From positions 925,581 through 989,580 of the forward strand of contig NW_005202427.1 in assembly GCF_000372725.1 (NCBI RefSeq): 64,000 bases of DNA, given 5' to 3'. Origin of the DNA: Emiliania huxleyi CCMP1516 (lineage: Eukaryota). Below are positions 12,389-37,400 of this stretch, piece after piece (position 1 is the first letter of the stretch; each line of letters starts with the position of its first letter). The position numbers and the translations under genes were made by a program. The notes under the pieces are model-generated. The model was not told where the DNA came from. It did not search any database and saw only the letters and a program-made list of their open reading frames with translations.

Positions 12389-14838
12389 ATGTCGACGCCC
12401 AAGCTCGGGACCGACGATGCGTGGTGGGGAGCGGGGAGCCGCTACGACGCCACGAAACGCGCGATCGAGAGCATAGGCCTCGAGGAGCGTTGGTGCGAAG
12501 TTCTCAAAGCGGCAGGCTACGATGATCTGGACCTGGCGAAGCTTGGCTCGATGGACAGCGTGCAGCTCGGGACGCTGGGTCAGCGGCTGGGCATGGACGA
12601 CGCGTCGAGCGTCGCCTTTGCCAGCCGCTTTGGCGATGCGGCCCGCGTCGAGGCGCTCAAGATGGTTGAGGCGATCGGCGGCGACAAGGCGTCCCTCGAC
12701 GAGAAGGTGGAGAGGCTGAAGCAGCAGGCGGAGGAGGAGGAGGCGCTGATCCGGAAGGCGGCGGCGATGCTCAACAACCCCCGTGTCGTCGACACCACCG
12801 TCGAGCAGCGCATCGACTTCCTACGCTCCAAGGGCCTCACAGCCTCGCAGGAGCGCTCTTCCCACGCTCATGAGCACCCCGCCACGCAGCAGAGGATCCC
12901 CCGCGCTGACGCACCGCCAGAGACTGCCTCGCCCCTCGCCCTGGCGCAGATCTCGCGCGCCCTCGAGCGGGCCGGCCTCGACCTCGCGGAGATGGAGCCC
13001 CTCGCCGCGGCGATGGGCATGGCGGCTCGCGGCCCCTAGAAGCGGAAGACGGATTCTTGTGCTCCACCCAGCGATCGAGAGGACACGGACTAAACTGTCC
13101 TCGATCGTACTCGGCTGGGTTTTCACTGTAGTCGCACCCCTCGGTATTCACGCGGTGCTCTGAAGACACTGCACGATCCCGTACTCCCGCCCTGAGGTTG
13201 GCGTATTCAGCACGCAGGCTCTCGGCAAAGCACGCGGCGGAGGCACCGGCCGGGGCGCACCAGCGACAAAGGCGGCGGGGGCGAGCGATGAGGGGGAAGC
13301 GGCGGCGGCCGGCGAGGCGGCTGCGGCCGGCATGGCCATCACAAAGCCGGTGGCCTTCCCCGAGGAGAGGTTCGCAGCCGCGGTGCGCAGGGCCGCGACC
13401 GTCGACCCCGACGCGCCGTTTCCCGGACTCAGCCGGTGCCCCCCCCCCTCACCACACACACACACACACACACACACACACACACACAAACACACACACA
13501 CACACACACACACGCACGCACGCACGCACGCACGCACGCACGCACACACACGCACGCACACACCGCCCCGCCCGCCCGCCTCCCTCCCTCCCCTGGCACC
13601 TCCTGCCGGGCAGAGGGGGAGGGGAGCTTGACGCGAGCTTGACGCGAGCTTGACGCGAGCTTGACGCGAGGCGCAGGTGCCTCCTCTTCTCCGTACCGCT
13701 GCTGCTGCTCTGTGGCGGCGCAGCCTATGCCTTCTACGACCCTCTCGTCTGCCGCCGGTAGATGCCCGCACAGGCGGCGCGTTGTGGCGCACGAGGACGT
13801 GTGCTTGTGGCCCCTCGTGGCCTGCGCAGTGCTCTCCCCTCCTCTTCTCCCCTCTTCTCCCCTCTTCTCCCCTCCTCTTCTCCCCTCCCCTCCCCTCCTC
13901 TCCCCTCCTCTCCCCTCCTCTTCTCCCCTCTTCTCCCCTCCTCTCCCCTCTTCTCTTCTCCCCTCCCTTCCTCTCCCCTCCTCTCCCCTCTCCTCCCCTC
14001 TTCTCTTCTCCCCTCCTCTCCCCTCTTCTTCTCCCCTCCCCTCCTCCCCTCCTCCCCTCCTCCCCTCCCCTCCCCTCCCCTCCCCTCCCCTCCCCTCCCC
14101 TCCCCTTCATAGCCCCTCCTACCCTCTACAGCCCCACCTCGCAAAGGTGCTCGCCACCGCGCCGCTCGTCGCCCCCTACTACCCCCGCGCTGCGAGGGAG
14201 CTGACGCGGCTGCGCGCGAAGGCGCAGACACAGCCGAGATCACGGCGAGATCGGACGAGATCGCGCTCTCCCTCAGCCGACTGACCACGCATCCTGCAGG
14301 AGGGCCCATTCCGTACGTTCGGTGTGTGTGTGTGTGTGTGTGTGTGTGTGTGTGTGTGTGTGTGTGTGTGTGTGTGTGTGGAGGGGGGGGGGGGGGCTAG
14401 CGCCCGCAGCGGCCCCAGTGGACTCCCCCTCGCGCCTTCCGAACCCCACGACTCGGCTGTCTTTCGGCTGTGTCTCTCGGCTACATCTCGGCTGCACTCT
14501 CTCCCCCTCAGCCTCGACCACGCGTCCTTCTTCTGAGATTGCCCGAGATCGCCCGAGATCGCCCGAGATCACCCGAGATCACCCGAGATTGCCCCGCAGG
14601 CGGCGCACGCCGCGCGGGTGGAGGCGGCGCGGCCCGCTGCAAGGTGAGCCGCGCGGAAGGAGGAAGGGGCTGCGTGGGCCCCGTCCGCGACATGTCCGCG
14701 ACACGTCCGCCTGCTCTCGCCCGTAGGCAGGCTGTGGCGGAGGCGGTCAGCCGGGCGCGGGCGTCGGTCGAGGGCGGAGGGGCGGGCCGCTGGAGCAGCC
14801 TCTGGGGCGGCGAGGAGGAGGAGAAGGACGAGGTCTGA
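12389..14838 (+). CDS. SAM-like + Pex14_N-like domain protein, multi-exon
   Basis: IGLEERW..LKAAGYDDLD (SAM-like); AAAMLNNPRVVDTTVEQRIDFLRSKGLTASQ|ISRAL (Pex14_N-like) after removing intron 12851-12949; intron 13025-13217 removes the TAG at 13037-13039 and joins downstream exons ending EEEEKDEV*. Confidence 0.65.
13025..13217 (+). mobile_element. Introner-like repeated intron, copy 1 (GC-AG, 193 nt)
   Basis: Colinear similarity to intron 35150-35341; intron start GCTC equals next exon start GCTC. Confidence 0.7.
13451..14107. repeat. Intronic (CA)n/(CACG)n and (CCCCT/CTT)n low-complexity tracts
   Basis: Direct reading. Confidence 0.9.
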
Positions 14839-15108
14839 GGGAGAGAAGGGGGGGAGGGAGGTGGTGGGGGGAGGGGGAGGGGGGGGGGGGGGAGGGCACC
14901 CCCTGAGCGGGAGCAGCAGCCTGCACGTACGGCTCTATGTACGTACGCCCGTGTGTTGAGGGGTTTGCAACCCGGGGAGGGATTCGGGGTGCGGCGTCGG
15001 GGGAGACGGAAGTCGTGCTGAGCTGAGAGCGTCTCTCTCACGCTCGCGCCGGCCGTGCGTGGGATGAGATACTCCCCGGCGTAAGGCGCGCGCGGCATGT
15101 GTGCAGGC

Positions 15109-34450: not shown

Positions 34451-37400
34451 ATGCCGGCGCGTCCTCTCTTCCTCCGGCTCAAGGGCCCCTCCACATCGGA
34501 GGCGGGCACTGCTGCAGTCCTCGGTGCGGGCGCCGGCTTGCCGGACCTCTTCCTCCTCGCTCGGCACGCCCTCGGCTGCCCGGCCGCGAGCGGCGATGCG
34601 CTGAATCTCTTCCTCAGCGACGGGACACGCGTCACGTCGATCGACGACCTGGAGGACGGCGATGCGCTTCTGGTCACCTTTGGCGACGCGCTGCCAGACC
34701 TCGGCTCGCGCGACGCCGCGCCGGCGAGCAGGCTAGGCGACTCGCCGGACCAGGAGAGTGTTGCGGCGGCTCAGAAGCCGCTGCTGGCAGCCTCCCGGGT
34801 TCTCGCTGCCGCCGAGGTCGGCGCCAGCGGCGAGCTCCCTCCCCTCTCTCGCGGCGGCGTCGGCTCCCGCGCACTCGGCGTCCCTGGCGGCGGCGGCTCG
34901 AGCGGCGGCGGCTCCAGCCCTCTCCAGGCGCTGCGAAAAGTCCCTCCAGAGGCACGCAACAAGGCCCTGATCGCCCTCGCCCTCTGCGTCGCGGCGGGCG
35001 GCGGCCTGCAGCTCGCCGCCCTCGCGCAGTGCGGCGCCAGCCTCCCGGCCGCCAACAGCACCTCTACCACCTCCTCCACCACCTCGGACGGCAGCGGCAG
35101 CTTCACCACCGTCACGACCACAACCACCACGCTACCCGACGCCGCGGCGGTGCAGAACCCTAGAAGCGGGATCCGCACTCTTGTATCCCAACCAGCGCTC
35201 GAGAGGAGGCATACTCCGCTGTGCTCAGCCGCATCTCGCTGTACTCCCTGGAGTCGTACCCCCTCGTATCCACGCGGTGCTCTGAGTACTCTGCACCACA
35301 ACGCCGTCTCCCCGCCCAACACTGGTGTCTTCAGCGCGCAGGTGCACAATGTCACCGGCGCGTGGCCTCTGCCTTTCGGGCCTCCCGACGGGTGCGCCTC
35401 TTCCGCCGCCGAGGCGGGGGGGTGGGGCGCGCTCTCCGCGGCAGCAGCCGGCAGGGAGGAGGCAGTTCGGTGCACCCTCCGTCTTCTTCACACCGTGCCG
35501 CTGTGAACAGGCGCCGCTCGGGCTGCTGGCTGCCGCTCTCATCCTTGCCCGCGAGGGTGCGCTCCCGCAGCCGCTGCCTGCCGGCGCGGCGTCGGGGGGG
35601 CGGGTGTACGGCTTGTCTGCCAAGCAGTGGGGCTGCGTCGCCGCGCTGCTCCCTCTCGGCTACCTGCTCGGTTCGTTCTTTGGCCAGCTCGTCGCGCTGT
35701 CGCCTCCGGACGAGGCGGCGCTGGACGCACCCTACGCGCCGCGAGGCGAGTGGGAGGCGGACGCCGCCGCCTCGGACCCCGAGCCGCTGCCGTCGGACCC
35801 GGTCCTCCGAGGCTACTTTGGCTGGGCGGGCGACGCACGAGAGGCTGGCGCGCAGTGGGGAGGGTCGGCAGGCCTCCTCCTCGGCGCCTTTGGCTCCTTC
35901 TCCCTCCTCCTCGCCCTCCTCGAGCCGGGCGTGCACGACACAGGCACGCCTGGCGTGCTGGAGCGGAGGAAGCTACGCCGCAAGCTGCGAGCCGGCCTCT
36001 TGGTCTTCGCGGGACAGCCCGGCGTCGCGCTGGTCAACTCCCTCTCCGCCGCCAGCCTCGCCGCCGCCGCCGTCTACTTCCTCTCCTCGGCTCTCGCTTG
36101 GAGCCTGGCCCAGCCTCCCTCCGCCGCCGCGCCGCCCTGCAGCTTTGGCGGCGGCGTGGCGGGCGCCGTCGAGAGGGCCGCGAACGGCTCCGCGAGCCGC
36201 GGTGAGTGCGCCCCCCTCCCCCTCTCGTGCGAGGCGCCGCCGCTATGGATGCGGCGTACGCTCGACCAGTCCGTCGCCGACGCCATCGCCGAGTTGCCGC
36301 TGCCGTCGGCGCCGGCGCGCGGGGCGCACGCGTCGGCGCTCAGTGGGACCGGTGCGGCCGCGTCAGTCGTCCTCGCCGGCGAGCGGCTGCTGAGCCACCG
36401 CGGCGGCTCCATCCAGACACGGATTTGCTGGCGCGACGGCGCTCGCAGCTGATGAAGCTCTCCTGGACCTGTGTCCTGGACCTGTGCTGGACCTGTCCTA
36501 GAACCTTTCCTAGGCGCGCCTCGCTCGCAGCTGATGCCGGACGTGCTCTACGCCACGGTCGAGGCGTGGCACTTCGCGTCCGAGGCGACGCTCTCCCTCT
36601 CCTCCTCCGGCGCCGCGCCTTGGTGGGCCGCACAGGCGGGCATCCTGTGGAGCTATCCCGCTCCTGGGGAGGGCCGCCGGTTGGACGCGTCGCTGGACGC
36701 GTCCTTGGACGCGTCCTCCCGAGAGGAGGGCAGGCGCTTGGACGAGGCGCCCACGTCGGCGCCCCTCCGCCTCTCCGCCTTTGGCCACGTCTCGCTCCTC
36801 GTCAACCTCGACGTGCCTCCCGACGGGAGAGGTGGGGAGGGGGAGGGGGGCGGGCCGCCGCCGCCGCCGGGGGCGGCCGCCGGGGGGGTGAGCACCGAGG
36901 TGCGTGCGCCGCGACGCCGGGTGTGGAAAGCAGCAGTCCCGACGCAGCGGTCTGACGAGCCACGCATCGCTGATCAGGCCTGCAGCGGAACGTTCGCGTT
37001 GACTCGCGCGACGCCGACTGATGCGCTGCGCCGGGCGGAGCTCGCGTCGGTGGAGCTCGCCGCCGCCGTCGACGCCGCCGCCGAGGCCGCCGCGGCACGC
37101 ATCGCACGGCGGCTCTGCTTTGGCGACAGCTCTCCTCCCGCGAACCGGTCGGCAGGCGGCGGCGGCGCCGAGGGCGGAGCTGCGGCCTCGGAACGGCGGC
37201 GGCTGGGCGGCGGCGGCGGCCGGCGCGAGCTGCTCTCGCCGCCGGCCGGTGAGGCGGGTGAGGCGTGGGGGTTGGCGTACAGTCTCCCGCGCATGCTCGC
37301 GGTGGTGTTGCCGGAGATGAGTGCGGCGGCGGCGGCGCAGCGCGAGCTGCTCTGCGCGGCGGCGGCGGCAGGGCTCCTCCTCTTTGGCGTGTCGATCTCG

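What the first reader, a model, noticed from the sequence alone, without database searches (positions are those of the whole stretch)
13025..35341. Two homologous introns in unrelated genes with TSD-like ends (introner-like family)
Seen: 13025-13217 (193 nt, GC-AG) and 35150-35341 (192 nt, GT-AG) align along their length (CCCTAGAAGCGG, TCTTGT, CCAGCGxTCGAGAGGA, CACGCGGTGCTCTGA, TTCAGCRCGCAG), while flanking exons are unrelated. Both are phase 0, and each starts with the same bases as the following exon (G|GCTC...CAG|GCTC; G|GTGCA...CAG|GTGCA). Known: introners in Micromonas and Aureococcus co-opt one splice site from the TSD. Inference: an intron-generating element without evident TIRs. Splicing copy 1 removes a stop and extends the Pex14_N gene.
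Basis: partly seen in the sequence, partly recalled or inferred. Interest (0 to 1): 0.75.

Follow-up and report, generated by a model that had tools for sequence, protein, structure and literature searches.

The report
Old transposon burst made algal introns
Two look-alike 190-base introns in unrelated genes are spliced out and belong to a family of at least 74 copies, likely left by a small DNA transposon that survived in coding sequence only where the spliceosome could cut it out cleanly; this is a known route of intron gain, here likely in an unlisted family of a haptophyte alga.

Summary
The two segments are 71% identical (z about 35), both are phase 0, and transcript-like contigs skip each one in 3 of 4 runs. 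A metagenome scan gave 98 family loci and 74 distinct full-length sites. Each intron is G + 8 site-specific bases + a ~180-nt core ending in AG; the next exon repeats G + the same 8 bases. So it is a MITE-like element (CCTA...TAGG) with a likely 8-bp target duplication. It carries the acceptor and borrows the donor (GC, GA or GT) from the base before the duplication plus its first base. Flanks code on the element's strand at 53 of 56 sites, and removal restores CCT2 and gamma-tubulin exactly. Copies are old (86% to consensus). No empty allele and no transposase were seen. This splice geometry is described in Polarella. The host is probably Emiliania huxleyi (inferred), whose listed introner families are only 30-70 nt. 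Verdict: new member of a known kind.

The parts
13025..13217 (+). Intron 1 of the family (GC-AG, phase 0) in a Pex14_N-domain gene
   Evidence: Contig joints in X2, X5, X8; phase and stop on retention
13026..13033 (+). Left copy of the 8-nt target duplication. G13025 + C13026 form the donor; one extra C lies at 13034
   Evidence: 7 of 8 match to 13219-13226; family pattern
13035..13218 (+). Element proper, copy 1, including its terminal G, which becomes the first base of the next exon
   Evidence: Family HMM match 13035-13217, E 1e-48; other copies' loose ends at 13034/5 and 13218-20; TIR register
13035..13051 (+). 5' imperfect terminal inverted repeat
   Evidence: 11 of 17 complementary in allele L086; 13 of 17 in the consensus
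13202..13218 (+). 3' imperfect terminal inverted repeat, holding the AG acceptor
13195..13195 (+). Candidate branch-point A
   Evidence: 99% conserved in 74 copies while its neighbours are 58-78%; function inferred
13219..13226 (+). Right (exonic) copy of the target duplication
12389..13436 (+). Host gene 1, 5' part: exons 12389-12850, 12950-13024, 13218 onward; a GA-AG intron at 12851-12949
   Evidence: Joints; Pex14_N; open frame
35150..35341 (+). Intron 2 of the family (GT-AG, phase 0, in frame and stop-free)
   Evidence: Contig joints in X5, X8, X11; translation
35151..35158 (+). Left copy of the 8-nt target duplication (G35150 + T35151 form the donor)
   Evidence: 6 of 8 match to 35343-35350
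35159..35342 (+). Element proper, copy 2, including its terminal G
   Evidence: Family HMM match 35159-35341, E 7e-41
35343..35350 (+). Right (exonic) copy of the target duplication
34451..36437 (+). Host gene 2, 5' part (no Pfam match): exons 34451-35149, 35342-35440, 35511 onward
   Evidence: Joints; open frame; no Pfam family

Best explanation
The two segments are spliced introns and copies of one dispersed ~181-bp element with imperfect 17-bp inverted ends, likely a non-autonomous cut-and-paste DNA transposon (MITE-type introner) that duplicated 8 bp on insertion and is probably long inactive. Shown: splicing at both window sites; the family; the G + 8 direct repeat; the inverted ends; sense-strand position in coding sequence; exact restoration of conserved proteins. 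Inferred mechanism: a dimeric transposase (unknown, hAT- or P-like) made an 8-bp staggered cut. The element's end supplies branch A and YAG|G. When the base before the target is G and the first target base is C, T or A, those two bases serve as a GC, GT or GA donor. Splicing then removes that G, the left duplication and the element up to AG, and the element's own last G replaces the lost G, so the mRNA is unchanged. Exonic insertions that miss this geometry would be purged, which would explain the strand bias, the fixed G, the lack of GG donors and the phase mix.
For: Splicing. Family: 98 of 117 pattern hits match the family HMM; 84 full-length copies at 74 distinct sites. TSD: within-site match 0.64-0.78 per position over the 8 bases against 0.27-0.44 between sites, dropping to background at once beyond them; 17 of 74 are perfect 9/9; 56 of 74 pass a 6-of-8 filter, and 8 more are recovered upstream of a secondary insertion or duplication. 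TSD match correlates with identity to consensus (rho 0.36, P 0.0015). TIR: mean 10.2 of 17 complementary when the exon's first G is counted as element, at most 5.5 in ten other registers; consensus 13/17, reached by 16 of 200000 shuffles. Target: T at 2 (19 vs 8.2 expected), A at 7 (22 vs 8.7), C at 3 (36 vs 17.7), G at 1 only 1 vs 17, of 53 sites with a codon-matched background; symmetry is best about the 8-mer centre; hobo GTNCGNAC and P GTCCGGAC are similar (PMC3276498 Table 4). Orientation: best frame on the element's strand at 53 of 56 sites (control 46 of 47); all 14 loci with a Pfam hit are sense, from 204 sense and 175 antisense pieces; 9 of 9 neighbouring copies share the strand. Exact restoration: CCT2 residues 343|344|345 and gamma-tubulin 426|427. 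Phases 24:12:17 fit G-non-G supply 628:313:564. GA donors work here: a GA-AG intron is skipped in 4 of 4 runs. No conserved RNA fold.
Against: No empty-site allele or intron-less orthologue was seen; both window copies are also present in metagenome alleles (1-2 differences in 183 nt). No autonomous partner or transposase was found, and no genome was held. The ends CC..GG differ from the CA/TG and TA/TA ends listed for 8-bp-TSD hAT and P introners, and TIR positions 5-7 and 10 are fixed mismatches. Nearly all sampled copies are genic and sense, which an RNA-based route also predicts. The sample is biased: it was picked by an exact motif from the 3' half and comes from only four assemblies. 10 of 74 sites show no clear duplication. 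The symmetry score (r 0.64) rests on 3 column pairs, and G at 6 is not enriched. In 4 of 14 Pfam loci (L029, L047, L051, L094) the junction does not read through cleanly in the Pfam frame. Splicing of metagenome copies, GA ones included, is inferred from proteins, not from reads. An asymmetric element with a 9-bp G-first TSD fits the sequence equally, apart from the TIR register.
Confidence: 0.85

Rival explanations
1. Same introner, but spread through an RNA step (reverse splicing or retro-insertion into transcribed genes) rather than by a DNA transposase.
For: Near-total genic, sense placement. No transposase seen. TIRs are imperfect. A second intron family and minisatellite insertions in the same contigs come with long, variable duplications, so a repeat-adding process may exist in this genome.
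Against: Fixed 8-nt duplication (48 of 56 sites at one offset), inverted ends in exact register, a T2/A7 palindrome-like target, no tail, no conserved RNA structure, no Rfam match. Reverse splicing would copy the whole intron, but the first 9 intron bases differ at each site and match the local exon.
Confidence: 0.07
2. An ordinary repeat (MITE or SINE) that landed inside introns that already existed.
For: Copies are old and diverged (79% pairwise). No empty allele was seen.
Against: The element holds the acceptor AG and runs to the exon boundary in all 74 full-length sites (AG was a condition of that count). The sequence between donor and element is a copy of the next exon, leaving no room for an older intron. 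Sites fall in conserved coding motifs in all three phases.
Confidence: 0.03
3. The similarity comes from the host's intronic ~10-bp minisatellites plus shared splice signals, not from common descent.
For: The consensus interior holds eight GTATTC units, five spaced about 10 bp apart.
Against: Similarity is colinear over 180 nt with unique segments, length is uniform, ends are fixed, and a minisatellite would not give a constant 8-nt duplication.
Confidence: 0.02

Closest known systems
Polarella glacialis introner-like elements, class 1 (alternative orientation) and classes 6/8/10 (Roy et al., bioRxiv 10.1101/2020.10.14.339549; parts 1-2 of 4 read)
   Same: Class 1 with a TAGG end takes the donor from the pre-TSD base plus the first TSD base and the acceptor from the 2nd- and 3rd-last element bases: the geometry found here. 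Classes 6/8/10 have 8-nt cuts. GC/GA/GT donor mix; phase bias set by recruited bases. P. glacialis fam9 (hAT, 8-bp TSD) has gc 629, ga 208, gt 142, close to GC 38, GA 8, GT 6 here.
   Different: Dinoflagellate host. There this geometry is a minor mode; here it is the rule. Those classes work in both orientations and are younger (median tips 0.9-3.8% for the two classes quoted, against about 9% here). No sequence comparison was possible.
Pelagomonas calceolata fam2 (PMC12130899 Dataset S2 row)
   Same: hAT-type, about 202 bp, 13-bp TIR, co-opts the 5' site and carries the 3' site. Its RepBase hit is an E. huxleyi non-autonomous element (hATv-2N1_EHux), so E. huxleyi hAT MITEs are catalogued.
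   Different: Pelagophyte host, mostly GT donors. Whether our family equals a RepBase EHux entry could not be checked.
Introner families listed for E. huxleyi CCMP1516 (PMC9860276 Suppl. Tables 5-6; PMC12130899 Dataset S2; rows seen)
   Same: Probably the same host (inferred); GT/GC donors.
   Different: Listed lengths are 37-70 nt (five families, 2022) and about 30-70 nt (three families, 2025), with TSD/TIR unknown or absent and no GA donors. None is near 190 nt. Their sequences were not seen.
Micromonas and Aureococcus introner elements (Huff et al. 2016; paper not held; seen only through PMC11282704 and the Polarella preprint passages)
   Same: Non-autonomous TIR elements that carry one splice site and recruit the other at the TSD.
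   Different: Micromonas IE1 has a 3-nt TSD and carries the donor. Aureococcus elements work in either orientation.
hAT (hobo) and P-element target sites (PMC3276498 passages)
   Same: 8-bp TSD with T at 2 and A at 7; short TIR; internal repeated short motif.
   Different: CC..GG ends; no transposase in hand.

Membership tests
Introner (intron-generating TE) | Four or more similar introns in non-paralogous genes, similarity reaching to within about 10 nt of both splice sites (criteria in PMC9860276) | tested here: met
   74 distinct sites; similarity starts at intron base 10 and runs to the AG; hosts include CCT2, gamma-tubulin, FtsH-like AAA, NIR_SIR, SWEET and Pex14_N genes
Introner (intron-generating TE) | Spliced from transcripts | tested here: met
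   Both window copies skipped in 3 of 4 runs each; other copies inferred from protein continuity
Introner (intron-generating TE) | Enriched in genes, in an orientation that allows splicing | tested here: met
   53 of 56 sense by codon model; 14 of 14 by Pfam. The sample is motif-selected, so a genic fraction was not measured
Introner (intron-generating TE) | Novel positions: presence/absence against relatives or alleles | not testable with these tools
   No genome held; eukaryote gene structures not available; both window copies present in metagenome alleles
MITE / non-autonomous TIR transposon | Short, non-coding, terminal inverted repeats | tested here: met
   About 181 bp; 13/17 imperfect TIR in one register
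MITE / non-autonomous TIR transposon | Fixed-length target-site duplication | tested here: met
   G + 8 repeat; 48 of 56 clean sites at one offset
hAT superfamily | 8-bp TSD with nTnnnnAn preference | tested here: met
   T2 19 vs 8.2 and A7 22 vs 8.7 expected of 53; shared with P elements, so not diagnostic
hAT superfamily | Typical termini (CA/TG or TA/TA in the introner table) | tested here: not met
   Ends are CC..GG against the rows seen
hAT superfamily | hAT transposase in an autonomous partner with the same ends | not testable with these tools
   No genome; no long internal ORF among the loci viewed; viral hits were terminus-only chance matches
P superfamily | CA/TG termini and P transposase | tested here: not met
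   Ends differ; target motif is similar; transposase untested
Published E. huxleyi introner families | Length 30-70 nt | tested here: not met
   Family core about 180 nt, full-length copies 141-197 nt against table rows; sequences not compared

The most novel reading that the evidence does not exclude
One old transposon burst, missed because the host's gene models force GT donors, wrote thousands of introns (a few percent of all) into this haptophyte and, with a second short family and duplication-making minisatellite insertions, accounts for a real share of its unusual GC and GA donors. The survivors then record the whole filter on intron birth (orientation, G before the target, no GG) and its later decay.
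Probability: 0.35. Interest if true: 0.68.

Novelty: new member of a known kind. Interest (0 to 1): 0.52.

Why it matters
Intron gain by transposons is established, but most described families are young. This one is old (9% median tip length) yet still shows TSD, TIR and target preference. It therefore lets one measure which insertions survived as introns and how the signals erode. If the host is E. huxleyi, two genome-wide surveys listed only 30-70-nt families there. A plausible reason is that its gene models mispredict GC junctions (PMC4028052), which would mean introner counts are too low in GC-donor genomes. The rough copy estimate is several hundred to several thousand, so it may be a sizeable source of introns in a major ocean alga. 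The mechanism itself has precedent in Polarella.

Tried and rejected
No whole genome is held, so no census, no empty-site search, no transposase search. No RNA holder is on record; the 14 holders are 'RNA?' guesses. RNA structure or ribozyme role: folds no better than shuffles (z -1.05 and -0.68); no Rfam match at E<=1 around copy 1; the consensus fold of 20 copies has 1 compensatory pair in 22. A hammerhead core and a Helitron end were considered by eye and dropped (no GAAA; a TSD is present). Viruses as carriers: 0 hits for the internal pattern; 16 + 1 hits for end motifs were terminus-only, best E 0.05; no match in phage records. 19 of 117 metagenome hits were chance matches and were dropped. 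Local hopping: neighbouring copies are 57-79% identical, no closer than the 79% family mean. L022 looked like a reverse-orientation intron (its 5' end change would give an AAG acceptor), but sense and antisense shadow frames both score well, so it is unresolved. The motif hit at 57310 is not a copy. Homologue search for gene 1 exon 1 among longer proteins found nothing; the exon after the AAA-site intron gave no PDB hit. The host taxon was not named by the protein tools. Earlier scan findings: none returned. Paper searches that showed no description of this family. PMC2784329 passages were not useful. Not seen and able to change the novelty call: RepBase, the authors' GitHub sequence files, files 13-14 of PMC12130899, the cut part of the PMC9860276 supplement, bioRxiv supplements, and Huff 2016.
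Full report
Observation. The two segments are at the stated places. They align over 188 columns at 70.7% identity (E 7e-17), with a local score of 102 against a shuffle maximum of 33 in 2000 tries. Flanking exons do not align. The window holds no third copy. Both are phase 0. Exon 1 of the first host gene has Pex14_N, and keeping copy 1 gives an early stop. Copy 2 is 192 nt and stop-free in frame.

Splicing. Contigs of four public runs (RNA by guess, four studies at most) were laid on each site. 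Copy 2 is skipped with GT..AG ends in X5, X8 and X11; X2 lists no joint. Copy 1 is skipped with GC..AG ends in X2. In X5 and X8 the tool reports 13033>13237 with seven letters between; those letters are 13227-13233, so I read this as the same splice in an allele lacking three exon bases. X11 lists no joint. The same contigs skip other introns, among them one at 12851-12949 whose only AG-ending placement has a GA donor, in 4 of 4 runs. Many further contigs pile on the element at 90-95% identity and leave it at 13034/5 and 13218-20, which marks the ends of a repeat family.

Family. No genome was held, so I scanned metagenome contigs with a 20-base gapped motif shared by both copies: 117 loci. 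A profile built from 63 copies matched 98 of them; 19 were chance hits and were dropped. The 98 come from four assemblies (68, 23, 6 and 1 loci, counted by hand). L086 and L011 are alleles of the window copies (2 and 1 differences in 183 nt). 84 full-length copies reduce to 74 sites. Pairwise identity averages 79% (maximum 96%) and identity to consensus 86%. The tree is star-like: terminal length 7.98, internal 1.38, 1 of 72 nodes at 0.95 support, median tip 0.09. This points to an old burst with no recent activity in the sample.

Anatomy. Each intron reads G, eight site-specific bases, then a ~180-nt core ending in YAG; the next exon begins with G and the same eight bases. Within-site match over those eight positions is 0.64-0.78 against 0.27-0.44 between sites and drops to background at the next base. 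56 of 74 sites pass a 6-of-8 filter, 48 of them at one offset. In 8 more the repeat lies further upstream, behind a secondary minisatellite insertion or short duplication; 10 stay unclear. TSD match rises with identity to consensus (rho 0.36). The ends are inverted repeats if the exon's first G is counted as element: mean 10.2 of 17 bases, against at most 5.5 in ten other registers; consensus 13 of 17, reached by 16 of 200000 shuffles. So the element is best read as CCTA...TAGG with an 8-bp duplication. One A, 23 bases from the end, is 99% conserved among variable neighbours and is a candidate branch point. There is no conserved RNA fold and no Rfam match.

Place in genes. A codon model trained on 2680 codons of the window (leave-one-out 46 of 47 correct) puts the best frame on the element's strand at 53 of 56 sites, 39 of 40 confident ones, with phases 24:12:17. 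All six frames of the flanks were scanned against Pfam where 40 or more codons were open (204 sense and 175 antisense pieces, 55 loci): 14 loci hit, all sense. In four of them the junction does not read through cleanly, probably because of nearby introns. Removal is exact where it could be checked: the exons match human CCT2 up to residue 343 and from 345 with the split codon between, and gamma-tubulin up to 426 and from 428 as second residue. One copy with a GA donor sits between the two acidic residues of the Walker B motif of an FtsH-like ATPase. Nine neighbouring copies found without the motif all share the strand. L022 may be reversed but is unresolved.

Mechanism. Donors are GC 38, GA 8, GT 6, other 4. 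The target has T at 2, C at 3 and A at 7 above a codon-matched background, and almost no G at 1 (1 vs 17 expected); symmetry is best about the 8-mer centre, though on three column pairs only. hobo and P elements have similar palindromic 8-bp targets (PMC3276498 passages). I infer a dimeric transposase with a palindromic preference, followed by a filter: an exonic insertion is harmless only if it is sense, a G precedes the target and the first target base is not G. The spliceosome then removes that G, the left duplication and the element to its AG, and the element's last G restores the sequence. The phase mix matches the supply of G-non-G pairs in flanking exons (628:313:564). Transposition and selection are inferred; no empty site or transposase was seen.

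Size. None of the nine neighbouring copies was caught by the full scan motif, so it catches under about 28%. The two main assemblies share 10 sites of 68 and 23, giving about 156 motif-bearing sites as a lower bound and so more than about 550 copies. Two copies in 64 kb scale to about 5000 in a 168-Mb genome (Poisson range about 600-19000; genome size from the table row). These are rough and depend on the host guess.

Host and literature. The tools did not name the organism. 65% GC and GC and GA donors fit E. huxleyi (GC 56%, GT 40%, GA 4% in curated genes; its gene models mispredict GC junctions; PMC4028052 passages). Its 10-11-bp intronic repeats are recalled, not from a call. Gozashti 2022 lists five families for it, of 37-70 nt, and Gozashti 2025 three, of about 30-70 nt (supplement rows); none is near 190 nt, but I could not see their sequences or RepBase, which holds E. 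huxleyi hAT MITEs. The splice geometry is described for Polarella class 1 elements ending in TAGG (preprint parts 1-2). Eight paper searches showed no description of this family. Huff 2016 was not held.

Verdict. A real, spliced introner family of MITE type, probably unlisted, in a known class and with a known mechanism. The superfamily is open: the target is hAT/P-like, the ends are not. Interest 0.52.

Noticed in passing
window 12851-12949: A GA-AG intron in the Pex14_N gene, skipped in 4 of 4 runs; the only placement ending in AG has a GA donor.
   Followed up: partly
window 35441-35510 and 37386-37687; L006, L008 (2), L020, L030, L032, L039 (2), L056 (2), L116: A second intron family with a ~37-40-nt core at the 3' end, in most copies preceded by a long, variable duplication of the next exon; same strand as the main family; a 68-bp tandem array in the window. 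Its size fits the 37- and 70-nt families listed for E. huxleyi; not sequence-checked.
   Followed up: partly
L017, L020, L031, L037, L081, L104, L107, L111 (5' end); L020, L049, L052, L076, L109 (3' end): A 10-bp minisatellite (CCCCATATCT units) is inserted at element ends together with a 15-35-nt local duplication, in one case reversed. This suggests a separate repeat-adding, duplication-making process that may itself lengthen or create introns.
   Followed up: partly
family consensus, positions 11-171: Eight GTATTC and two GAATAC units, five spaced about 10 bp apart; could be transposase-binding repeats or a seed for the host's intronic minisatellites.
   Followed up: no
L073 and L087: The intronic copy of the duplication has GC where the exonic copy has GA, which may be a GA-to-GC donor conversion as reported in dinoflagellates.
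   Followed up: no
L022:487-683: Possible reverse-orientation intron with a change at the element's 5' end that would make an acceptor; gene strand unresolved.
   Followed up: partly
L002, L036, L044; contigs: Internally deleted copies (114-141 nt) that keep both ends and the duplication.
   Followed up: no
window 16187-16397, 44395-44607, 56896-57329; 17980-18204/23372-23596; 28192-28368/52357-52526; 49078-49252/51077-51325; 61257-61387/61990-62130: Other dispersed or inverted repeats of 130-230 bp at 84-98% identity, likely further MITE-like families or ends of larger elements.
   Followed up: no
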